A stretch of DNA of 58,277 nucleotides from a virus. Position 1 is the stretch's first letter; every line of letters begins with the position of its first letter. This document shows, one piece after another, positions 6,818 to 36,860 of the stretch. The stretch spans positions 1 through 58,277 of the IMG/VR virus record IMGVR_UViG_3300045988_058281; one strand, written 5' to 3'. The notes beneath the pieces are model-generated. The model was given only the letters and a program-made list of their open reading frames with translations, did no database searches and was not told where the DNA came from. Made by a program: the position numbers and the translations under genes.

Positions 6818-7031
6818 CAGACACGCGGGTATTTGAGGTTGGAAATGGCTCCCGACACTCCCTTGTATGAGGACGGAACGGGCAGCCGTCGCCCTAGTTG
6901 GAGATGCGTGAGTGCTGACACGCCGCAAGAGAACCTGAGATGCAGGATACGCCGCCCTGCCAAATATCCAGAGTAAGCCGGAGGTGTCTGAATGGATGCT
7001 TCCGGCTTGCTGCATGATTGGAGGGAACATA

Positions 7032-7261: not shown

Positions 7262-7305
7262 AGTGCCAAGTGCCTCTCCAGATGGAGCGAACAGTGCCAA
7301 GTGCC
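7262..7305 (+). promoter_or_regulatory. AGTGCCAAGTGCC motif pair A (terL leader)
   Basis: Exact 13-mers at 7262..7274 and 7293..7305. Confidence 0.75.
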
Positions 7306-7336
7306 TTTTATCTTACGGGATAGGAGGCACTTTTTT
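7299..7336 (+). terminator. terminator-like / RBS-sequestering hairpin
   Basis: AAGTGCCT (7299..7306) pairs with AGGCACTT (7325..7332). A T-run extends to 7336. The 3' arm overlaps the GGAGG RBS (7323..7327). Confidence 0.5.
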
Positions 7337-7337
7337 C

Positions 7338-8981
7338 GTGGAAATTCGAGAGTTAGTAGTGAGGGCATTTCAGAGAGATTTGTCCGACCCGTCTGCGCTA
7401 TCTGATGCGTTTGATTCAATTAGGCTGTTGGAGCCGGAAGATTTTTCGCTGGCACACGAGCGGAACAAGGAGGTGCGGCGGCTGTCTGCAAAATTCGCCG
7501 CAGAACAAAAAAGCCTCCGCATGTTCGAGCTAAACAAGCGGAGTCTGCTGTTTGATGCCCCGTATGATTTTGACTGTTTTCTTCGTTATATTGAGTGGAA
7601 TAGGCCAAATGACAAGCGGTTTTATTTGCCACGCAGAAAGGTTCTTCTCTCCATCGTAAATGCGTTTCAGCAAGTAGCGGATGGAGCGTTAGACTTGCTG
7701 ACAGTCAGCCAGCCTAAGAGAACTGGTAAGACCACGCTCGGATTGATGTTTGTTTTGTTCCGCGCAGGACAACATCCTGGAGGTTCTTCTATCTGTTCCG
7801 GTGCGGGCAATGATCTGGTAAAATCGTTTTACACTGGATGCCTGGATATTCTGCAAAAGCCGGAGGAGTATCTGTACTACGATGTGTTCCCGAAAGCGAG
7901 GCTTGCGGCTACCAACGCGGACGAAAAGACCATCCACCTCGAAAAGAAAAAGCGGTTTGCCACAATCACTTGCCGGAGTATCGACGGTGCTCTAACCGGT
8001 TCTACAGAGTCTACACCAGAAGGTGTAATGTACCTGGATGACCTTGTGTCTGACGAGCTGGAGGCGAACAACAGAAACCGCCTTGACACTTTGTGGGATA
8101 AAGTGCGCGGCGATTTGCTGGGCCGTCGTTTGGAAGGGTGCCCGATTGTAGCGCAGGGCACACGGTACAGTCTGTATGACCCCTTGGGCCGCTTACAGGA
8201 AATTGCACCTACAATGGGGTGGCGCACAAAGGTTGTTGAAATTCCGGCTCTTGACCCAGTTACCGATGAAAGCAATTTTGAGATTATCTTGAATGGGAAA
8301 CCAGCGTTTACGACGGAATATTACCGGCATGAGCGTGAACTGGTGACACCTGTTCAGTGGGCCAGTCAGTTTCAACAGGAGCCGTTTGAGGCAAAAGGCC
8401 TGCTATTCCCGGAAAATGAACTGAACAGATATTTTGAGTTGCCGGTAGATCAAGAGCCGGATGCCATTATCTCTGTATGCGATACGGCTGAAGGAGGCGG
8501 AGATAGCGTTATGATGCCGATTGCGTACATCTACGGTGAAGATGTATTTATTGAAGATTGTGTGTTTGACAACAGCACCCCGGAAGTCACAAAGCCACAG
8601 TGTGCTAAGAAGCTGGTAGAGCACAAGGTTTCGGTTGCCACCTTTGAGAGCAACAACGCAGGAACTTACTTTGCCCGTGACGTTGAAGAACTGGTCAAAA
8701 AAGTGGGCGGTCGAGTGAGCATAAGAACACGGCGTACTATCAGCAACAAACAGACACGCATTGAAATGGCCTCTGACGGAATTTTGAAGCACTTCTACTT
8801 CAAGGATAAGTCTCTATATAAACCGTCCGATCAATACGGACAGATGATGCGTGAGCTGGTGACATATACGAGAACAGGCAAGGTAAAACACGACGACAGC
8901 CCTGACGGATTAAGCCTTCTTGAAAATGAAATTCGCAACTTAACTTGGGGGAAAGCAGAAGTGTTTAAGCGTCCGTTTTAA
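7338..8981 (+). CDS. terL: terminase large subunit
   Basis: GTG at 7338 lies 10 nt after GGAGG. The track start at 7263 lies inside the motif and was rejected. Walker A is PKRTGKTT. The C-terminal nuclease region has KHDDSPD. Confidence 0.9.
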   Translation: MEIRELVVRAFQRDLSDPSALSDAFDSIRLLEPEDFSLAHERNKEVRRLSAKFAAEQKSLRMFELNKRSLLFDAPYDFDCFLRYIEWNRPNDKRFYLPRRKVLLSIVNAFQQVADGALDLLTVSQPKRTGKTTLGLMFVLFRAGQHPGGSSICSGAGNDLVKSFYTGCLDILQKPEEYLYYDVFPKARLAATNADEKTIHLEKKKRFATITCRSIDGALTGSTESTPEGVMYLDDLVSDELEANNRNRLDTLWDKVRGDLLGRRLEGCPIVAQGTRYSLYDPLGRLQEIAPTMGWRTKVVEIPALDPVTDESNFEIILNGKPAFTTEYYRHERELVTPVQWASQFQQEPFEAKGLLFPENELNRYFELPVDQEPDAIISVCDTAEGGGDSVMMPIAYIYGEDVFIEDCVFDNSTPEVTKPQCAKKLVEHKVSVATFESNNAGTYFARDVEELVKKVGGRVSIRTRRTISNKQTRIEMASDGILKHFYFKDKSLYKPSDQYGQMMRELVTYTRTGKVKHDDSPDGLSLLENEIRNLTWGKAEVFKRPF

Positions 8982-9061
8982 CATCACATACAATCCATAA
9001 TAAATATATAAATATTTGTAATACGAGAGGAATGTGGTACAATATATGTGAGGTGAGTGCA

Positions 9062-9865
9062 GTGGAAAAGAACAACGACAAAAAATGGATTGGTCAAAAA
9101 TTTGGGAGATTGACTGTCATCGGATTTGAGAAGAAAAAGGAGCCAAGTAGAGGATGGAATTGGGTGTGCAAGTGCGACTGTGGAAATAAAAAGGTAGTAT
9201 CGCCGCAAGATGTAAAATTAGGAAAAACAAAGTCGTGTGGGTGTTATCACGACGAGGTGTGTAAATCCCGTGCAACCAAATATAATCATTTAGTTAAAGA
9301 TTATCCAAGATTACATAGGATATATCACTGGATGAAACGAAGATGCTATGATCCTAAAACACCAAGATACGAAGATTATGGTGGGAGAGGGATTTCAGTT
9401 TCAAGAGAATGGATGGATAAAGCGCATGGATTTGATAATTTTGCGCAATGGTCAATAGATAATGGGTATTCAGATCAACTCACGCTTGATAGGATAGACG
9501 TAAACGGGGATTATTGCCCAGAAAATTGCAGGTGGATAACATATAAAGAACAGAACGGAAATAAGAGAGATACAAAATGGGTTGTTTATCAAGGAGAAAA
9601 AATTCAACTTAAAAAACTATGCGAGAAAATGGGCGTTTGCTATGACACTGTTCATAATCGCATATATTCTTTGGGGTGGGATGTCGAACGTGCTATTATG
9701 GAGCCATCACAACAAGAAAATTCTCTCAGGAAAAAATGCAAAGAAAAGGGTATGAATTATGGGACGGTAAGAAGCCGAATAAAGCAATTCGGATGGTCAG
9801 AAGAACGCGCACTAAACACACCATCTGTTGGACGTGGGGCAAGCAAAAAGACATATACGAAATGA
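9062..9865 (+). CDS. free-standing HNH-type homing endonuclease with tandem C-terminal HTH modules
   Basis: GRLTVIG...CKCDCGNKKVV...SCGC zinc module, YGGRGISV...LTLDRIDVNGDYCPENCRW HNH-like core, and two repeats of G..Y.TV..RI...GW..ERA. AT-rich. An alternative ATG lies at 9032. Confidence 0.75.
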   Translation: MEKNNDKKWIGQKFGRLTVIGFEKKKEPSRGWNWVCKCDCGNKKVVSPQDVKLGKTKSCGCYHDEVCKSRATKYNHLVKDYPRLHRIYHWMKRRCYDPKTPRYEDYGGRGISVSREWMDKAHGFDNFAQWSIDNGYSDQLTLDRIDVNGDYCPENCRWITYKEQNGNKRDTKWVVYQGEKIQLKKLCEKMGVCYDTVHNRIYSLGWDVERAIMEPSQQENSLRKKCKEKGMNYGTVRSRIKQFGWSEERALNTPSVGRGASKKTYTK

Positions 9866-9866
9866 C

Positions 9867-9950
9867 GCTTTTGATACTTGGGCAATGTTTGCTGAGTATG
9901 CCCAACAACTTGAAGGAAACAAGGTGGAGGTATTCCGGCGTCCGTTTTAA
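9867..9950 (+). pseudogene. orphan duplicate of the terL 3' end
   Basis: Encodes AFDTWAMFAEYAQQLEGNKVEVFRRPF*, compared with the terL end DGLSLLENEIRNLTWGKAEVFKRPF*. The last 13 nt, GCGTCCGTTTTAA, are identical. Confidence 0.6.
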
Positions 9951-9975
9951 AATACAAAATATTGCGCATAAACTA

Positions 9976-10004
9976 TTGATAAGCACTATATATTGTGATA
10001 TAAT
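9976..10004 (+). promoter_or_regulatory. near-consensus extended -10 sigma-A promoter of the large RNA
   Basis: TTGATA (9976..9981), 17-nt spacer, TGaTATAAT (9996..10004). Confidence 0.7.
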
Positions 10005-10010
10005 AAAACT

Positions 10011-10750
10011 GGTAGGTAGATTCCTACCACCTGTCCACCATCTTTTTTCTCACCTCCTTCACACGGATGGGGTGGCGGCGATAGTGTCGCTGCCCCTACT
10101 GTGTGAAATATATGCCGCACGAGTGAATCAGCCCAAGAATCCGGGCCGGAGGGTCGCCCCCTCCATGCGGCAAAGTAAGCTGTCTCAAAGTACACGAGGC
10201 TGACTGTGGAAAGACACTATACCGGAGGCTTACAGTGCCTAATTATGCACCGGAGAAGGGTAAAGGGCACCCGCCTGTCATGGAGGCGGAAGCGGTGGCA
10301 CTATGACGGCCACTGAGTGTGCCGACACTTGTAAAGCGGCTGCGCCCGGCGGAGCGTGTAGAGACGGAATCCGCCAACATGCAGGGGCCAGAAGCAGGGT
10401 AGCTCCCAGGCTGTGCAACTCAGTCCACCTGCTATATTGGGTCGCTCCCATCCGTGGAAGCCGGACGCTTGTGTAGGGCGATAGCTACCAGCGCTATCCT
10501 GCTGAAAACTGCCGTGTTTGCCTGTGCACGGGCCTCCCAATACGGTGTGACAATCTAAGCGGGAAGCGCATATATGCCTCTCCTCGCCGCATGAGGCGGG
10601 CGGTGGCACCATTGAGCGGTGGCGGAATAAGGTAGACGCTGACTGGTAGGGGGATACACTCGGTGGAAGTCCGGGGGGCCTGGTGGTTAGGTAAACACGC
10701 CCTATGGAACCACGCTGTGAGGTGCAAATCCTCACCCGCTCAAACAATAT
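10011..10750 (+). ncRNA. large structured noncoding RNA (class unassigned; ROOL/GOLLD-like context)
   Basis: No plus-strand ORF of 60 aa or more. Dense GC-rich helices, for example 10011..10028, 10074..10094, 10113..10119/10166..10172, 10148..10164, 10271..10289, 10717..10735. Directly followed by tRNAs. Confidence 0.6.
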
Positions 10751-10824
10751 ACGGGTGTAGCTCAATGGAGAGCGTCGGATTCCAAATCCGGAGGTTGGGG
10801 GAACAGAGCCTTCCACCCGTGCCA
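10751..10824 (+). tRNA. tRNA-like element, anticodon CCA (Trp), non-canonical T-loop
   Basis: Acceptor ACGGGTG/CACCCGT plus GCCA, D arm GCTC/GAGC, anticodon loop TTCCAAA. The T arm GGGGG-AACAGAG-CCTTC lacks TTC. Confidence 0.5.
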
Positions 10825-10910
10825 GGGCGCAAGTCCTGACAGAGTTTCTTGGCGAAAGGCAAGTGAGCAAAGCCGAAAAACTCACAACATACCCCGAAAG
10901 GGGTATATCT

Positions 10911-10984
10911 GGACCATTGGCCCGATGGTCGGGCGGGCCCCTCATAAGGGCTTGGTCTTGGTTCGATTCCAAGATGGTCCACCA
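10911..10984 (+). tRNA. tRNA-Met (anticodon CAT; could be Ile2 if lysidinylated), CCA encoded
   Basis: Full cloverleaf: GGACCAT/ATGGTCC acceptor, GCCC/GGGC D stem, CTCATAA loop, CTTGG-TTCGATT-CCAAG T arm. Confidence 0.85.
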
Positions 10985-11010
10985 GAATTAGAAAGGAGTC
11001 GCCCAACTGA

Positions 11011-11178
11011 ATGAAGATTGACATTTATTGTCCGGTCTGTGCCGCTGCTGGCATCAATCATGGAAAAGGGCGGCTTTTGATGCAGGTGGATAGCAAGGCA
11101 GTTGGTGTTGTTTACCCATACTGTAAGGCTTGCAAGAAGAACATCAAAATCGAATTGAAAGGCGAAAAGAGCGCCTGA
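11011..11178 (+). CDS. 55-aa zinc-ribbon protein (2x CxxC; Com-like topology)
   Basis: MKIDIYCPVCAAAG...YPYCKACKKNIKIEL. AAAGGAG RBS. Below the ORF-track size cut-off. Sits immediately upstream of motif pair B. Confidence 0.6.
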   Translation: MKIDIYCPVCAAAGINHGKGRLLMQVDSKAVGVVYPYCKACKKNIKIELKGEKSA

Positions 11179-11191
11179 AAATATATAGTTT

Positions 11192-11239
11192 AGTGCCAAG
11201 TGCCTCCGGGCAATGCCTGGACGAAGCGTGCCAAGTGCC
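11192..11239 (+). promoter_or_regulatory. AGTGCCAAGTGCC motif pair B (portal leader)
   Basis: AGTGCCAAGTGCC at 11192..11204 and CGTGCCAAGTGCC at 11227..11239. Confidence 0.75.
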
Positions 11240-11286
11240 GATCAGTTACCGAGAAATCCTCGGTAGTTGGTCGGCATTTTTGTTTG
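11236..11286 (+). terminator. strong intrinsic terminator immediately upstream of the portal RBS
   Basis: 18-bp stem (11236..11253 / 11259..11276, several G-U pairs), loop AAATC, then TTTTTGTTTG. The 5' arm starts inside the motif. Confidence 0.8.
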
Positions 11287-11301
11287 TCTGGAGGTGACAA
11301 G

Positions 11302-12792
11302 GTGACTGAAAACGATACTGTTCGAGCTATATCTGAGTGGCCGGTTGATGGGCTGACCGGTCGGCGTAAAATCTACACCACAAAAAAGCGAGTCACCCCG
11401 GAAAACGTGGTGGAGGTGCTGGGCAAGGCACTGGCCGTGCATCGCATCAACAGGGCGGAAATGTCCTATTTGTATGACTATTACAGAGGCAAACAGGACA
11501 TCCGGTTGAAAGATAAAATCGTCCGCCCGGAGATCAACAACAAGGTGATGATTAACCGGGCGAACGAAATCGTGGTCTTCAAGTCTGCTTACCTCCTGGA
11601 TGGCCCAATCCGCTATGTGTCCAACGGTGGAGAAGATGATATTTCCGCCAGTGTGAACACGCTCAACGAGTACATGCGATCTGAGAGTAAAGACACTCTC
11701 GACAAGGAGCTGGCCGACTGGATGCACATCTGCGGTGTAGCGGTTCGTATGGTACTTCCCGATGAGGCTGGGGAGGAAGATGGCTCTCCCGCCTCTATCT
11801 ACACCCTTGACCCGAGGGCGGCGTTTTGCATCTACCACAGTGGCGTAGGGCAGAAAAAGGTCGCTGGTGTTCTGGAACAGGTAGACGAGGAGGGCAAGCC
11901 CTACTTCTGCGTGTACACCCCCGAATGGTATTTTGAGGTGCAGAACGGCCAGATCACTAAGCAGGAAGCCCGTACCATCCCCTACATCCCCATTGTAGAG
12001 TATGTGAATAACGACGCCCGCATGGGTGCGTTTGAGCCAGTTATCCCCATTCTGAACGCGATCAATATGATTGAGTCCAATAGGTTGGACAGTATTCAGG
12101 ATTTTGTCAACGCATATGATGTGTTCCAAAACTGCGAACTAGAAGATGGCAAATACAAAGAACTGGCAAAGGGCGGCATGGCGATAAAAATAAGGAGTTT
12201 TGACCAGACCAAAGACGCCAAGGTCTACCGCATTGCTTCTGAACTGAACCAGACCAACACGCAGACCATTGTGGACGATCTGGAAGACGCATACCTGACG
12301 ATTTGTGGGATGCCGAACCGGAACGGCGGTTCCTCTACAAGCGACACCGGGCAGGCGGTCATTTACCGGGATGGTTGGTCTGCCGCAGAGAGCCGGGCAA
12401 AGGACACGGAAAAGACCTGGGAGCGGTCGGAGCGGGAGTTCCTGCGGCTGGTTCTGTATATCTGCCGTGAGACTGGCGTTTTGGGTTTGCAGTTGGCCGA
12501 CATCAAGCCGGAGTTTACCCGCAAGAACCTGTCCAACATCCAGTCCAAGGCCCAAGTGCTGGCGGAAATGCTGAACAACAGCAAGATTCATCCGAAGTTG
12601 GCGTTCCAGTACAGCGGGCTATTCAGCGACCCAGAGGACGCATACAGGATCAGCATGGAATATGCAGAAGAACAGCAACGCAAAATGGAGCGGAGTTTGA
12701 GGGATGAACTGAATGCCAACAGAAACGAATCCGTACAGACTGGCGGACAAAGCAATAGACCTCCTGAACAGCCGAGCAGTCAAGCGGTTTGA
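11302..12792 (+). CDS. portal protein (SPP1 gp6-like)
   Basis: GTG at 11302 follows GGAGGTG. YLYDYYRGKQDI...INNKVMINRANEIV motifs. Confidence 0.9.
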   Translation: MTENDTVRAISEWPVDGLTGRRKIYTTKKRVTPENVVEVLGKALAVHRINRAEMSYLYDYYRGKQDIRLKDKIVRPEINNKVMINRANEIVVFKSAYLLDGPIRYVSNGGEDDISASVNTLNEYMRSESKDTLDKELADWMHICGVAVRMVLPDEAGEEDGSPASIYTLDPRAAFCIYHSGVGQKKVAGVLEQVDEEGKPYFCVYTPEWYFEVQNGQITKQEARTIPYIPIVEYVNNDARMGAFEPVIPILNAINMIESNRLDSIQDFVNAYDVFQNCELEDGKYKELAKGGMAIKIRSFDQTKDAKVYRIASELNQTNTQTIVDDLEDAYLTICGMPNRNGGSSTSDTGQAVIYRDGWSAAESRAKDTEKTWERSEREFLRLVLYICRETGVLGLQLADIKPEFTRKNLSNIQSKAQVLAEMLNNSKIHPKLAFQYSGLFSDPEDAYRISMEYAEEQQRKMERSLRDELNANRNESVQTGGQSNRPPEQPSSQAV

Positions 12793-13333: not shown

Positions 13334-13426
13334 ATAAACGGGCGGCTATCCCGACGGGGAGAAAAGTGGAGTGCCTTGCCACCTGCCGCCTGTTCATTCA
13401 ACAAGGCTGACTATTGGAGGCGATAG

Positions 13427-14035
13427 TTGATGGAAGAAATTTGGAAAGATATTGACGGGTTTGAAGGGCTTTATCAGGTAAGTAATTTTGGAAATGTTAT
13501 GAGTCTTAATTATGGTAATAGAGGATATGCAAAAAAACTAACTCCGAAATGTAACAATAGCGGAAGGCTTTGGGTTGAATTACTGAAGGGCGGAAAAAGA
13601 AAGTGCATGTTAGTTCACCGGCTTGTTGCGCTTGCTTTTATACCGAATCCGAACAATTTCCCGCAAATAAACCACAAAGATGAAAATCCCAAAAATAATT
13701 TTGCTTTTAATTTGGAATGGTGTACTCAATCTTATAATAATCACTACTCTATTGAACGGCATCCGGAATATTCAATACATTTGAGGAGGAAAAAGAGGGC
13801 GCCAACAGGAGCGGAGTGGCACCGCATCCACGATGGAGAAAACCGAAACAATAGAAAGCCATCTAAATTGTCGTTCCCAGTATTGCAATATGATAAAGCA
13901 GGAAAGTTACTAAAAAAGTGGGAAACGCTATATTCCGCTTACAAGGAAAATAATTGGAATGCGTCTTCCATCAAAGAATGCTGTGAAATGAAGAGAAAAA
14001 CGGCATATGGTTTTATCTGGCGATACGTCAGTTAA
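13427..14035 (+). CDS. HNH homing endonuclease (NUMOD4 + HNH_3-like)
   Basis: WKDIDGFEGLYQVSNFGNV, then VHRLVALAFIPNPNNFPQINHKDENPKNN...LEW. AT-rich insert between head genes. Confidence 0.85.
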   Translation: MMEEIWKDIDGFEGLYQVSNFGNVMSLNYGNRGYAKKLTPKCNNSGRLWVELLKGGKRKCMLVHRLVALAFIPNPNNFPQINHKDENPKNNFAFNLEWCTQSYNNHYSIERHPEYSIHLRRKKRAPTGAEWHRIHDGENRNNRKPSKLSFPVLQYDKAGKLLKKWETLYSAYKENNWNASSIKECCEMKRKTAYGFIWRYVS

Positions 14036-36625: not shown

Positions 36626-36860
36626 ACTTTTATTATACCCCAAAGAAAACGAATGTCAACTATGCAGAGTAACGAAGTTACGTCGTTACGTATTTCACAT
36701 AAATCCCACATAACTCCCACACAACTCCCGCATGGATGCCACCCATGCGGGCTTATTCTATGCGACAATATATCCATGGAGGACGTGGGGATCAAGGGTT
36801 GGTACACGTCGCCGCCCTCCTCACGGACTCCATTATTTTTATACAAAGGACGTGTGATAT

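What the first reader, a model, noticed from the sequence alone, without database searches (positions are those of the whole stretch)
9976..10984. A 0.75-kb ORF-free structured RNA with its own consensus promoter, fused to a tRNA-like element and a tRNA-Met: candidate giant ornate phage RNA (ROOL/GOLLD-like context)
Between the homing endonuclease and the portal gene there is about 1 kb with no plus-strand ORF of 60 aa or more. The only long ORF (10301..10972, minus strand) runs through two tRNA cloverleaves and is an artefact.

A near-perfect promoter, TTGATA-17-TGaTATAAT (9976..10004), starts a GC-rich segment packed with helices:
- 10011..10028
- 10074..10094
- 10113..10119 pairing with 10166..10172, enclosing 10148..10164
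- 10271..10289
- 10316..10329
- 10511..10533
- 10717..10735
- the GAAA-tetraloop hairpin 10889..10906

This segment runs straight into a tRNA-like Trp element and a bona fide tRNA-Met. It then continues into a zinc-ribbon ORF and a strong terminator.

GOLLD and ROOL RNAs are large ornate RNAs known to sit in phages and prophages next to, or enclosing, tRNAs. I cannot assign the class from memory. This could be a member of either class or a new one.
Basis: partly seen in the sequence, partly recalled or inferred. Interest (0 to 1): 0.85.

Follow-up and report, generated by a model that had tools for sequence, protein, structure and literature searches.

The report
Modular phage tRNA-island RNA cassette
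The region is a real, promoter-driven, non-coding RNA locus of a gut phage: not a known giant RNA, but a shuffled string of new structured RNA modules, tRNA look-alikes and a true tRNA, one module having two hairpin loops that co-evolve to pair with each other.

Summary
A consensus promoter (9976-10004) is followed by about 1 kb of structured non-coding sequence, a tRNA-Trp-like element, tRNA-Met, a 55-aa zinc-ribbon ORF and a strong terminator.

The ROOL/GOLLD reading does not hold as membership: no Rfam 15 family except tRNA matches. It also does not hold as anatomy, because this is not one conserved 0.75-kb RNA.

Pieces occur in more than 250 gut phage contigs and in Oscillospiraceae genomes as independently folding modules. 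They are reshuffled and interleaved with real tRNAs. Among phages whose portal protein is at least 88% identical, the promoter-to-ORF cargo varies from 0.2 to 1.85 kb.

Compensatory changes support:
- module A2: an invariant 22-mer, an H-type pseudoknot and two hairpins
- module B
- a tRNA-Leu-derived chimera with a hypervariable core

The two A2 hairpin loops stay complementary (5-7 nt) through nine independent sequence changes. Module C is a 13-bp minihelix ending in ACCA.

Best reading: an accessory ("moron"-type) tRNA-island cassette whose transcript is cut at tRNA-like ends into tRNAs, tRNA mimics and new stable RNAs. A2 may self-associate. Function is inferred only; the most likely role is counter-defence or translation takeover.

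The parts
9976..10004 (+). Consensus sigma-70 promoter with extended -10 (TTGATA-N14-TGATATAAT)
   Evidence: Scores 11 of 12 plus TG. Promoters of the same type lie 201-1845 nt upstream of the zinc-ribbon ORF in 34 related loci.
10010..10029 (+). Leader hairpin 1, at the predicted transcript start
   Evidence: Predicted by folding. A different hairpin occupies the same position in other loci.
10030..10057 (+). C/U-rich, G-poor leader tract (contains CACCUCCUU)
   Evidence: Read from the sequence. A similar CU tract is present in the leaders of other loci. Its UCUUUCC is complementary to GGAAAGA of the 22-mer in 39 of 168 contexts, which is weak evidence.
10058..10107 (+). Leader hairpin 2 (about 20 bp)
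   Evidence: Leader fold z = -5.2. Homologous block 10053-10118 is present in many loci.
10114..10171 (+). Module A1: stem P1 (10114-10119 with 10166-10171) enclosing two hairpins. It is preceded by AUAUAU.
   Evidence: Alignment of 35 sequences: 15 predicted pairs, 4 with compensatory changes. Fold z = -2.4.
10182..10200 (+). Optional hairpin GUCUC-9 nt-GAGGC upstream of A2
   Evidence: Present or absent among homologs. GCUCC/GGAGC in other loci gives compensatory changes.
10201..10222 (+). Invariant 22-mer UGACUGUGGAAAGACACUAUAC (start of module A2)
   Evidence: 17 invariant columns in 75 distinct sequences. The 22-mer is also shared by variant A2', which has a different downstream domain.
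10222..10270 (+). A2 H-type pseudoknot. S1 pairs 10222-10225 with 10250-10253, plus an inner GC stem. S2 pairs loop 10235-10239 with 10266-10270.
   Evidence: S2 is 95.9% paired, and 4 of its 5 pairs show compensatory changes. In S1, CCGG/CCGG alternates with CCAG/CUGG in 15 sequences.
10271..10289 (+). A2 hairpin 1 (CCGCCU-GUCAUGG-AGGCGG). Its loop is kissing partner 1.
   Evidence: 94% paired; 5 of 6 pairs show compensatory changes. Loop complementarity to hairpin 2.
10293..10315 (+). A2 hairpin 2 (CGGUGGC-ACUAUGACG-GCCACUG), after the conserved AAG linker. Its loop is kissing partner 2: AUGAC 10303-10307 pairs with GUCAU 10277-10281.
   Evidence: Stem covaries. The loop-loop complementarity of 5-7 nt is kept in nine independent sequence classes, against a mean of 2.7 nt for mismatched classes.
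10316..10487 (+). Module X (X1 10316-10437, X2 10438-10487): an optional insert between A2 and B
   Evidence: Absent in many loci, where B directly follows A2. Fold z is about 0. Weakest evidence for function.
10491..10569 (+). Module B: P1 (10491-10503 with 10558-10569), a conserved internal loop (GAAA 10504-10507 opposite GACAAUCUA 10549-10557), P2, and a variable distal part
   Evidence: 44 distinct sequences among 117 copies. P2 pairs show 7, 18 and 12 double changes. Fold z = -3.2.
10576..10611 (+). Module C: a 13-bp hairpin with loop GCAUGA, then A + CCA (10608-10611). It is preceded by AUAUAU.
   Evidence: All 126 copies continue GGCACC-A and are preceded by AUA(U/C). 95-100% identical across loci. 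Fold.
10613..10743 (+). tRNA-Leu-derived chimera (LeuL): acceptor 10613-10619 with 10736-10742, D arm GGCGGAAUAAGGUAGACGC, a 6-bp T stem with loop UGCAAAU (10717-10735), and a 78-nt non-tRNA core
   Evidence: The frame is 98.8% paired, and 9 of 16 pairs show compensatory changes. 26 distinct members have cores of 40-110 nt. Neither the Rfam tRNA model nor ARAGORN matches it.
10751..10824 (+). tRNA-Trp(CCA)-like element with G73 and encoded CCA, but T loop AACAGAG
   Evidence: Rfam tRNA 52 bits; not called by ARAGORN. The anticodon stem covaries and the odd T loop is kept in 11 variants.
10825..10906 (+). Module D: GCAA-tetraloop hairpin, a composite stem-loop, and a GAAA-tetraloop hairpin abutting the tRNA-Met leader
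   Evidence: Fold z = -5.9. 92-95% identical in L002, L055 and L060. The terminal hairpin covaries in L199.
10911..10984 (+). tRNA-Met (CAU) with encoded CCA
   Evidence: Called by ARAGORN and by Rfam at 57.8 bits.
11011..11178 (+). 55-aa CxxC...CxxC zinc-ribbon ORF, the constant protein gene of the cassette
   Evidence: Present in 59 of 61 TerL-portal gaps of related phages. No significant Pfam, PHROG or NCBIfam match.
11234..11288 (+). Intrinsic terminator (20-bp stem plus T run) closing the cassette, just before the portal gene
   Evidence: Conserved in relatives.

Best explanation
Window 9976-11288 is an autonomous accessory transcription unit (a 'moron'-type cassette). It sits between the large terminase and portal genes of an uncultured gut siphophage, and the same RNA modules occur in Oscillospiraceae genomes and Flavonifractor phages. 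Its layout is: consensus promoter, about 1.0 kb of non-coding RNA, a 55-aa zinc-ribbon ORF, and an intrinsic terminator.

Shown:
- The non-coding part is a string of independently folding modules joined by AU-rich linkers: leader hairpins; A1; A2; X; B; C; a tRNA-Leu-derived chimera with a foreign 78-nt core; a tRNA-Trp with a non-canonical T loop; D; and a canonical tRNA-Met.
- A2 consists of an invariant 22-mer, an H-type pseudoknot and two hairpins whose loops co-evolve to stay complementary. C is a 13-bp minihelix ending in ACCA.
- The same modules are recombined in many combinations in related phages.

Inferred:
- The primary transcript is cut at the tRNA-like ends. The AUAU|G leader found before the real tRNAs of these islands also precedes A1, X2 and C. 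Encoded CCA ends follow C, the Trp-like element and tRNA-Met. Cutting would release tRNAs, tRNA mimics, stable structured RNAs and a short-leader mRNA for the zinc-ribbon protein.
- The products act in trans on host tRNA or translation machinery. The most likely roles are replacement tRNAs and decoys against tRNA-targeting defences.
For: Organisation:
- Promoter and terminator.
- A constant promoter-cargo-zinc-ORF-terminator frame, with cargo of 0.2-1.85 kb, in phages with 88-99% identical portal. The frame is absent in phages with 52% identical portal.

Modularity:
- Patchy 95-100% identical blocks.
- About 85 different module/tRNA arrangements.
- Of 121 distinct A2 contexts, B follows in 75 and C in 58, both in 39 and neither in 27.
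- B precedes A2 in L178, and A2 stands alone between tRNAs in L184.

Selection on RNA structure:
- A2: 19 of 26 pairs have double changes, against 10.5 +/- 1.7 in shuffles (0 of 500 shuffles reach it). Covariation score is 0.183, against at most 0.069 when partners are slid.
- B: P2 covaries.
- LeuL frame: 9 of 16 pairs covary.
- A1: 4 pairs covary.
- Kissing loops: 5-7 nt in nine independent classes, against 2.7 nt across classes.
- G-U pairs fit the plus strand only.

tRNA-like processing signals:
- Real tRNAs of these islands have the leader A-4 U-3 A-2 U-1 (73/64/68/65%), and 61 of 85 encode CCA.
- C is always ...GGC-A-CCA and is preceded by AUA(U/C).
- The Trp-like element ends in G73-CCA.

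Context from the literature:
- tRNA arrays are regarded as putative anti-defence units (abstract of PMC12803027, listed).
- ROOL and GOLLD lie in tRNA arrays and oligomerise through kissing loops.
Against: - No expression, end-mapping or processing data exist for this locus. RNase P, RNase Z or other cleavage is inferred from sequence context only.
- Several blocks are 95-100% identical between loci, so part of the apparent conservation may reflect recent exchange rather than selection. Modules X and A1 have little covariation.
- Some pieces could be tRNA debris. L002 carries a tRNA-Thr with its anticodon arm deleted.
- The decoy/counter-defence role has no direct support. No defence gene or target was identified.
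- The co-evolving loops cannot tell pairing within one molecule from pairing between molecules.
- The most conserved element, the 22-mer, has no assigned partner or role.
Confidence: 0.55

Rival explanations
1. One large multi-domain RNA, a functional analogue of GOLLD or ROOL. The leader-to-C stretch (or leader-to-tRNA-Met stretch) would act as a single ornate RNA with tRNAs tolerated in linker regions. It would assemble into a homo-oligomer through the A2 kissing loops and GNRA contacts.
For: - The commonest arrangement keeps the order leader, A1 (or a tRNA), A2, (X), B, C.
- B starts 119-317 nt after A2 in 62% of contexts.
- There are three GNRA hairpins in D, conserved internal loops in B, and co-evolving complementary loops in A2.
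- No internal terminator or strong promoter is predicted.
- GOLLD likewise has a variable half and embedded tRNAs, and ROOL and GOLLD oligomerise by kissing loops.
Against: - No long-range helix linking the modules was found. Every module closes on itself.
- Modules occur alone and in altered order.
- Phages with near-identical portals carry B only, A2+B, or the full set.
- AU-rich linkers carry the same leader as real tRNAs.
- No match to the ROOL or GOLLD models.
Confidence: 0.25
2. A cis-acting leader. The structured RNA would be a long 5' UTR that controls or stabilises the downstream zinc-ribbon mRNA. Alternatively it would make RNA polymerase resistant to the cassette terminator so that portal and head genes are expressed (put-like processive antitermination).
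For: - In the TerL-portal lineage the cargo always lies between the promoter and the zinc-ribbon ORF.
- A strong terminator sits just before the portal gene.
- In other phages the island lies between a regulator gene and the packaging genes.
- The leader hairpins and CU tract come first in most loci.
Against: - Cargo content varies from about 0.2 to 1.85 kb with no constant element except the promoter-proximal region.
- The same modules occur inside large tRNA arrays and in contexts without the zinc-ribbon ORF.
- A tRNA or minihelix 26 nt upstream of the ORF suggests the leader is removed rather than used.
Confidence: 0.1
3. Mostly non-functional debris. The region would be a decaying phage tRNA array whose remnants (deleted or expanded tRNAs, recombination scars) are carried along by recent horizontal exchange.
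For: - L002 carries a tRNA-Thr lacking its anticodon arm.
- C and the 3' part of A2 share sequence with tRNA 3' halves, and recombinants exist in L121, L132 and L137.
- Many blocks are 95-100% identical.
- X shows no fold signal.
Against: - Compensatory changes in A2, B, LeuL and the A2 loops show selection for RNA structure.
- The odd T loops of the Trp-like and Leu-like elements are invariant while their stems covary.
- The 22-mer is invariant across diverged hosts.
Confidence: 0.07

Closest known systems
GOLLD and ROOL RNAs (large ornate RNAs of phages and prophages)
   Same: Both are non-coding, highly structured and encoded in phage or prophage tRNA arrays. tRNAs can be embedded between conserved parts. 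They contain pseudoknots. Kissing loops drive homo-oligomers in ROOL and GOLLD (PMC12286853, PMC12990946), and here two loops co-evolve to stay complementary. Function is unknown in all cases.
   Different: There is no sequence or structure match to either covariance model. The conserved units here are small (A2 about 120 nt, B about 80 nt). They recombine freely, occur alone and can change order. Several units are plainly tRNA-derived.
Phage T4 RNAC and RNAD (species 1 and 2 stable RNAs in the T4 tRNA cluster)
   Same: Small stable RNAs of unknown function encoded next to phage tRNA genes (PMC9697503). Co-processing with the tRNAs is my own recollection of the older literature and was not checked here.
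   Different: No sequence relation was tested or is expected. The T4 RNAs are two fixed genes, not a combinatorial set. No pseudoknot or kissing-loop signature is known to me for them.
phi29-family packaging RNA (pRNA)
   Same: Both are phage RNAs of about 120 nt in which two loops of the same molecule are mutually complementary and co-vary between relatives. Both are encoded near packaging genes.
   Different: No Rfam pRNA match. The phages here have a classical terminase and an SPP1-type portal. A2 is absent from many phages with a near-identical portal, so it cannot be an essential part of the packaging motor.
tRNA-like non-coding RNAs (tmRNA tRNA-like domain, bacterial Y RNA YrlA, acceptor/T minihelices)
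   Same: Module C is an acceptor/T-type minihelix with discriminator A and CCA. LeuL keeps acceptor, D and T arms around a foreign core, much as tmRNA and YrlA keep a tRNA-like frame (own knowledge).
   Different: ARAGORN finds no tmRNA and there is no conserved tag reading frame. There is no Rfam match to tmRNA or YrlA. The acceptor-plus-T stack is 13 bp rather than 12, and the T loops are non-canonical (UGCAAAU, GCAUGA).
Phage tRNA arrays as counter-defence, and phage 'morons'
   Same: A variable set of tRNAs (Met, Trp, Ile, Thr, Gln, Arg, and a UCA suppressor type) sits in an accessory unit with its own promoter and terminator between essential genes. tRNA arrays are discussed as anti-defence units (abstract of PMC12803027).
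   Different: Most of the cargo here is not canonical tRNA. It consists of new structured RNAs and tRNA mimics. No defence target is known.

Membership tests
ROOL RNA (Rfam) | Match to the ROOL covariance model at or above the gathering score | tested here: not met
   No hit at gathering in the window or in 15 homologous loci. No hit at E <= 10 on 9900-11300 or at E <= 5 on L009 5350-6700.
ROOL RNA (Rfam) | Encoded in phages or prophages, often near tRNA islands | tested here: met
   The locus is flanked by terminase and portal genes, and tRNAs lie within and beside it. This is context only and is not sufficient for membership.
GOLLD RNA (Rfam) | Match to the GOLLD covariance model (conserved 3' domain) | tested here: not met
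   No hit.
GOLLD RNA (Rfam) | A variable region that can hold tRNAs, next to a universally conserved domain | tested here: inconclusive
   tRNAs are interleaved. No single domain is universal in these cassettes: A2, B and C each occur without the others, and some cassettes carry none of them.
tRNA (RF00005), for 10911-10984 | Cloverleaf scoring above the gathering score, with a canonical T loop and an anticodon loop | tested here: met
   57.8 bits. ARAGORN calls tRNA-Met(CAU). CCA is encoded.
tRNA (RF00005), for 10751-10824 | Cloverleaf scoring above the gathering score | tested here: met
   52 bits against a gathering score of 29. Anticodon CCA, G73 and CCA are present, and the anticodon stem covaries.
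tRNA (RF00005), for 10751-10824 | Canonical T loop (U54 U55 C56 R57 A58) | tested here: not met
   The T loop is AACAGAG in all 11 variants. ARAGORN does not call the element, even at a lowered threshold.
tRNA (RF00005), for 10613-10743 (LeuL) | Cloverleaf with a 5-bp anticodon stem and a 7-nt loop carrying U33 | tested here: not met
   No Rfam tRNA hit at E <= 10 and no ARAGORN call. The core is 78 nt. Some relatives keep a G(A/C)UAAAG loop without U33.
tRNA (RF00005), for 10613-10743 (LeuL) | Acceptor, D and T stems maintained by compensatory change | tested here: met
   98.8% paired, and 9 of 16 pairs have double changes. The D arm is GGCGGAAUAAGGUAGACGC, which is tRNA-Leu-like from my own knowledge.
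tmRNA | tRNA-like ends plus a conserved tag reading frame; detection by ARAGORN or Rfam | tested here: not met
   ARAGORN in tmRNA mode finds none, and there is no Rfam hit. The candidate frame through the 22-mer has no conserved stop or peptide, and variation is at the nucleotide and pairing level.
phi29-type pRNA | Match to the Rfam pRNA model, and a phi29-like phage lacking a classical terminase | tested here: not met
   No Rfam hit. Terminase large subunit and SPP1-type portal are present.
phi29-type pRNA | Two loops of one RNA that are mutually complementary and co-vary among relatives | tested here: met
   Nine independent loop-pair classes with 5-7 nt Watson-Crick runs. This is a resemblance in mechanism only.
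Phage moron (accessory transcription unit) | Own promoter and terminator, inserted between conserved genes, and absent from related phages | tested here: met
   Promoter and terminator. The unit is absent from the 288-nt TerL-portal gap of phages with 52% identical portal, and its content varies in closer relatives.

The most novel reading that the evidence does not exclude
A2, alone or together with B and neighbouring modules, is a third, independent lineage of self-assembling phage tRNA-array RNAs. The surrounding cassette would be a natural combinatorial library of tRNA-framed RNAs: a tRNA-Leu chassis with swapped cores, a minihelix ending in CCA, and a tRNA-Trp with a rebuilt T loop. Phages would reshuffle this library to counter tRNA-directed host defences.
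Probability: 0.3. Interest if true: 0.85.

Novelty: new variant of a known kind. Interest (0 to 1): 0.7.

Why it matters
ROOL and GOLLD showed that phage tRNA islands hide large self-assembling RNAs of unknown function. This locus adds a set of RNA families not in Rfam (A2, B, minihelix C, and the tRNA-Leu-framed chimeras) from abundant human-gut phages of Oscillospiraceae.

It also has two features that make the open question more tractable:

1. The units are small and modular. Near-identical phages naturally carry different subsets, which is a ready-made deletion series.
2. A2 has a clear, mutable loop-loop pairing code that can be tested by compensatory mutagenesis.

Two cultured Flavonifractor plautii prophages, Castelnaud and Chenonceau, carry A1-A2-B and C-D respectively, so experiments are feasible.

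If the tRNA-framed chimeras prove to be decoys or scaffolds, they would be a new class of phage counter-defence RNA. They would also be a natural precedent for engineered tRNA scaffolds.

Tried and rejected
- **Known RNA families.** Rfam gathering and permissive E-value scans of the window and of homologous loci returned only tRNA in the region.
- **tmRNA.** The 5' GCC... and 3' ...GGUGGCACCA ends and an AAND-like frame looked suggestive. I rejected it because ARAGORN finds no tmRNA, there is no conserved stop or tag, and A1's 5' strand pairs locally with covariation rather than with the distal 3' end.
- **Intron-containing tRNAs.** ARAGORN with introns allowed and lowered thresholds gave only implausible calls.
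- **Protein coding.** The minus-strand ORF has no family and is not conserved. The zinc-ribbon ORF has no significant family.
- **A cis partner for the invariant 22-mer.** Only a 7-8-nt match to the leader CU tract turned up, in about a quarter of contexts. That is too weak and low in complexity to count.
- **Automatic hairpin parsing for the kissing loops.** MFE-based parsing was too noisy. A stem-anchored parser and a curated table with shuffling controls replaced it.
- **Internal loop of B.** K-turn and sarcin-ricin readings do not fit the sequence. A UAA/GAN-type motif is possible but rests on memory only.
- **Literature and supplement searches for the motif.** Nothing was found. One preprint, found, could not be opened.
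- **First promoter regular expression.** It used the wrong spacing and undercounted. It was corrected.
Full report
**1. The observation.**
The stretch is as described.
- A TTGATA-17-TATAAT promoter with an upstream TG (9976-10004) is the best sigma-70-type match in 8900-11500.
- From 10204 to 11010 there is no plus-strand ORF of 60 aa or more. A 175-aa GTG ORF (9676-10203) does overlap the start, but it is out of frame with the HNH gene and runs across the promoter.
- The minus-strand ORF 10301-10972 has no Pfam or PHROG match. It is intact only in seven near-identical copies and is broken in the next relatives.
- G+C rises to 0.54-0.61 inside the region, against 0.36-0.47 in the flanks.
- The plus strand folds with z = -4.45, against -2.7 for the minus strand.
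- ARAGORN and Rfam call tRNA-Met at 10911-10984. The Rfam tRNA model also scores 10751-10821 at 52 bits, although ARAGORN does not call it.
- A 55-aa CxxC...CxxC ORF (11011-11178) and a terminator with a 20-bp stem (11234-11278) follow.

**2. It is not a known RNA family.**
Rfam 15 gives no ROOL, GOLLD, tmRNA, pRNA, RNase P or other hit in the region. This holds at gathering thresholds for the window and for 15 homologous loci, and at permissive E-values. Literature and supplement searches found no description of the motifs.

**3. Relatives are abundant, and they are mosaics.**
- Among deposited phages, only Flavonifractor phages Castelnaud and Chenonceau share pieces, in patches.
- Exact-word scans of IMG/VR found the A2 24-mer in 89 contigs.
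- Species-representative genomes with true matches are all Clostridia of the Oscillospiraceae kind: Vescimonas, Dysosmobacter, Muriventricola, and unnamed Oscillospiraceae. A Colidextribacter contig also holds the word but was not examined.
- BLAST of the window against these loci gives sharply bounded blocks of 70-100% identity.
- A module map shows about 85 different arrangements, with genuine tRNAs (Ile, Thr, Gln, Arg, Met and others) placed between the blocks.
- In L118 and L184, A2 sits inside arrays of 7 or more tRNA genes.
- Of 121 distinct A2 contexts, B follows in 75 and C in 58, both in 39 and neither in 27.
- In L178, B precedes A2.

So the 0.75-kb 'giant RNA' is a particular concatenation of separable units.

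**4. Anatomy of the window array.**
All parts are on the plus strand.
- **Leader.** Hairpin 10010-10029, a C/U-rich tract, and a hairpin of about 20 bp at 10058-10107 (z = -5.2).
- **A1 (10114-10171).** A 6-bp stem encloses two hairpins. Four pairs show compensatory changes in 35 sequences.
- **A2 (10201-10315).** Described in section 5.
- **X (10316-10487).** An optional insert with no fold signal.
- **B (10491-10569).** A 12-13-bp closing stem, a conserved internal loop (GAAA opposite GACAAUCUA), then a stem P2 whose pairs change on both sides in 7, 18 and 12 of 42 sequences. The distal insert is hypervariable, 20-75 nt.
- **C (10576-10611).** A 13-bp hairpin with loop GCAUGA, followed by A and CCA. 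All 126 copies read ...GGCACC-A and are preceded by AUA(U/C).
- **LeuL (10613-10743).** A 7-bp acceptor stem, a D arm GGCGGAAUAAGGUAGACGC (tRNA-Leu-like, from my own knowledge), and a 6-bp T stem with loop UGCAAAU. This frame is 98.8% paired, with 9 of 16 pairs showing double changes. The 40-110-nt core differs completely between members, and some members also carry an insertion in the D loop. The Rfam tRNA model does not recognise it.
- **Trp-like element (10751-10824).** Anticodon CCA, discriminator G and encoded CCA. The anticodon stem covaries. The T loop is an invariant AACAGAG.
- **D (10825-10906).** GCAA- and GAAA-capped hairpins (z = -5.9).
- **tRNA-Met (10911-10984).**

**5. Module A2 is the clearest new RNA.**
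In 75 distinct sequences, 17 columns of a 22-nt strand (UGACUGUGGAAAGACACUAUAC, 10201-10222) are invariant. The rest of the module is as follows.
- An H-type pseudoknot. Stem S1 pairs 10222-10225 with 10250-10253. The loop 10235-10239 pairs with 10266-10270.
- A hairpin at 10271-10289.
- A conserved AAG linker.
- A second hairpin at 10293-10315.

On the MAFFT alignment:
- 86% of cells pair.
- 19 of 26 pairs carry double changes, against 10.5 +/- 1.7 in shuffles (0 of 500 shuffles reach this).
- The covariation score is 0.183, against at most 0.069 when partners are slid.
- The pseudoknot helix is 95.9% paired.
- G-U pairs fit only the plus strand.

A covariance model (R1) finds one copy in the window (111.7 bits). 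It also finds a variant, A2', that keeps the 22-mer and the pseudoknot topology but has a different downstream domain.

**6. The two A2 hairpin loops co-evolve.**
In the window, GUCAU (10277-10281) is complementary to AUGAC (10303-10307). Counting a G-U pair, the two loops can pair over 7 positions.

Relatives with different loops keep the complementarity:
- GCCUC/GAGGC
- GUCUC/GAGAC
- UGCUGG/CCAGCA
- UGCUAG/CUAGCA
- UGAUGG/CCAUCA
- AUCGUGG/CCACGAU
- UUGCAG/CUGCAA
- AUCGCAC/GUGCGAU

Within the majority class, the G-U position is seen as A-U and as G-C.

Own-partner Watson-Crick runs are 5-7 nt (mean 5.9) in nine independent classes. Loops taken from different classes give a mean of 2.7 nt. Shuffling one loop reaches the observed run in 0.07-5% of trials per class.

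The linker between the hairpins is only 2-5 nt when the second stem is read at full length. In the majority class that reading includes a U-C mismatch; the shorter 5-bp reading gives a 7-nt linker. A fully stacked 5-7-bp loop-loop helix inside one molecule therefore looks strained. That is inference from geometry. Covariation cannot separate the two cases.

**7. Evidence for tRNA-style punctuation.**
- The 85 distinct ARAGORN tRNAs of these islands have the leader A-4 U-3 A-2 U-1 (73/64/68/65%).
- 61 of them encode CCA.
- In the window, AUAU immediately precedes A1, X2 and C. The leaders of the Trp-like element (AAUAUAC) and of tRNA-Met (UAUAUCU) contain UAUA, but it is not placed directly before the 5' end.
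- Encoded CCA ends follow C, the Trp-like element and tRNA-Met.
- A tRNA or a minihelix often lies about 26-30 nt upstream of the zinc-ribbon start codon.

I infer that the transcript is cut at these sites by RNase P-, RNase Z- or exonuclease-type processing. No data show this.

**8. What the locus is in the genome.**
I anchored on the portal protein and compared 72 phages.
- Where the portal is 88-99% identical, the TerL-portal gap is 568-2774 nt.
- The gap consists of a consensus extended -10 promoter, cargo, the constant zinc-ribbon ORF (59 of 61 loci) and the terminator.
- The promoter-to-ORF distance ranges from 201 to 1845 nt.
- Cargo can be almost nothing; B only; A2+B; A2+B+C+LeuL+tRNA-Met; or a tRNA with anticodon UCA.
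- Phages with 52% portal identity have a 288-nt gap and none of this.

In other phages the same modules lie between an XRE-like regulator gene and the antirepressor, HNH and terminase genes.

The cassette is therefore an accessory, moron-type unit whose RNA cargo turns over quickly among near-identical phages. This argues against an essential structural role, for example in packaging. It fits host-interaction or counter-defence functions, which is the role currently discussed for tRNA arrays (PMC12803027 abstract).

**9. Explanation and rivals.**
- **Best supported (0.55).** A polycistronic tRNA-island cassette that is processed into tRNAs, tRNA mimics and new stable RNAs acting in trans, with A2 possibly self-associating. 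The organisation and the RNA structures are shown. Processing and function are inferred.
- **Single large RNA (0.25).** The transcript would work as one GOLLD-like ornate RNA. It is favoured by the common module order, the GNRA hairpins and the kissing loops. It is disfavoured by module independence, order changes and the absence of inter-module helices.
- **Cis-acting leader or antitermination role (0.10).** This does not fit the variable cargo.
- **tRNA debris (0.07).** This does not fit the compensatory changes.

**10. Novelty.**
The context is that of ROOL and GOLLD: a phage tRNA array, embedded tRNAs, pseudoknots and kissing loops. The families are new to Rfam 15, much smaller, modular and partly tRNA-framed. 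I rate this a new variant of a known kind.

Castelnaud and Chenonceau are cultured F. plautii prophages (PMC10197239, listed), so the predictions can be tested directly.

Noticed in passing
window 7263-9950: The HNH endonuclease gene (9032-9865; PHROG 374, E = 2e-65) lies between TerL (ending ...KAEVFKRPF*) and a 123-nt remnant (9828-9950, ...WAMFAEYAQQLEGNKVEVFRRPF*). In relatives without the HNH (L021, L304) that remnant sequence is the real TerL C-terminus. This looks like a homing-endonuclease insertion that brought its own copy of the TerL 3' end.
   Followed up: partly
window 6828-6968, 13339-13406, 36778-36831: Three other Rfam families score above gathering in the window. Skipping-rope RNA lies upstream of TerL. 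An int-alpA RNA lies immediately upstream of a second HNH-like ORF (13427-14035). RAGATH-31 scores 83 bits. Skipping-rope and int-alpA recur in the related loci.
   Followed up: no
L304 4116-4189 (also L307-L310, L318, L325): Phages with an 88-91% identical portal carry, in the same cassette, a 74-nt tRNA with anticodon UCA. It would read UGA; ARAGORN labels it SeC. These cassettes also contain diverged 22-mer-like and UGCAAAU-loop elements.
   Followed up: no
L005, L006, L007, L020, L055, L153, L277 and others: Several cassettes contain 79-81-nt 'tRNA-???' genes with oversized anticodon loops (ARAGORN anticodons 'aa', 'gcaa', 'aata'). They start with GCCGCUG or GCCCUUG acceptor strands.
   Followed up: no
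L002 (Flavonifractor phage Chenonceau) 3058-3110: This is a tRNA-Thr(UGU) with the whole anticodon arm deleted. The acceptor, D arm, T arm and U-CCA end are kept. The intact gene is seen in L231 and L244.
   Followed up: partly
L009-type loci, about 90 nt upstream of the leader (e.g. L009 5430-5450): A perfect 20-bp palindrome, GATTCCCTCATGAGGGAATC, lies between the XRE-like regulator gene and the RNA island. It may be an operator for regulated expression of the island in that genomic context.
   Followed up: no
window 10613-10743 and 10576-10611: Both LeuL (7-bp acceptor plus 6-bp T stem) and minihelix C have a 13-bp acceptor/T stack instead of the canonical 12 bp. Among tRNAs, that geometry is otherwise typical of tRNA-Sec (own knowledge).
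   Followed up: partly
window 10277-10283, 10300-10308, 10589-10594; B inserts in L093-type loci: CAUG-containing loops recur in several modules: GUCAUGG and CUAUGAC in A2, GCAUGA in C, and AAUCAUGAUG in the commonest B insert. This could allow cross-module or self-pairing. In L156, where the A2 loops differ, the C loop is unchanged.
   Followed up: partly
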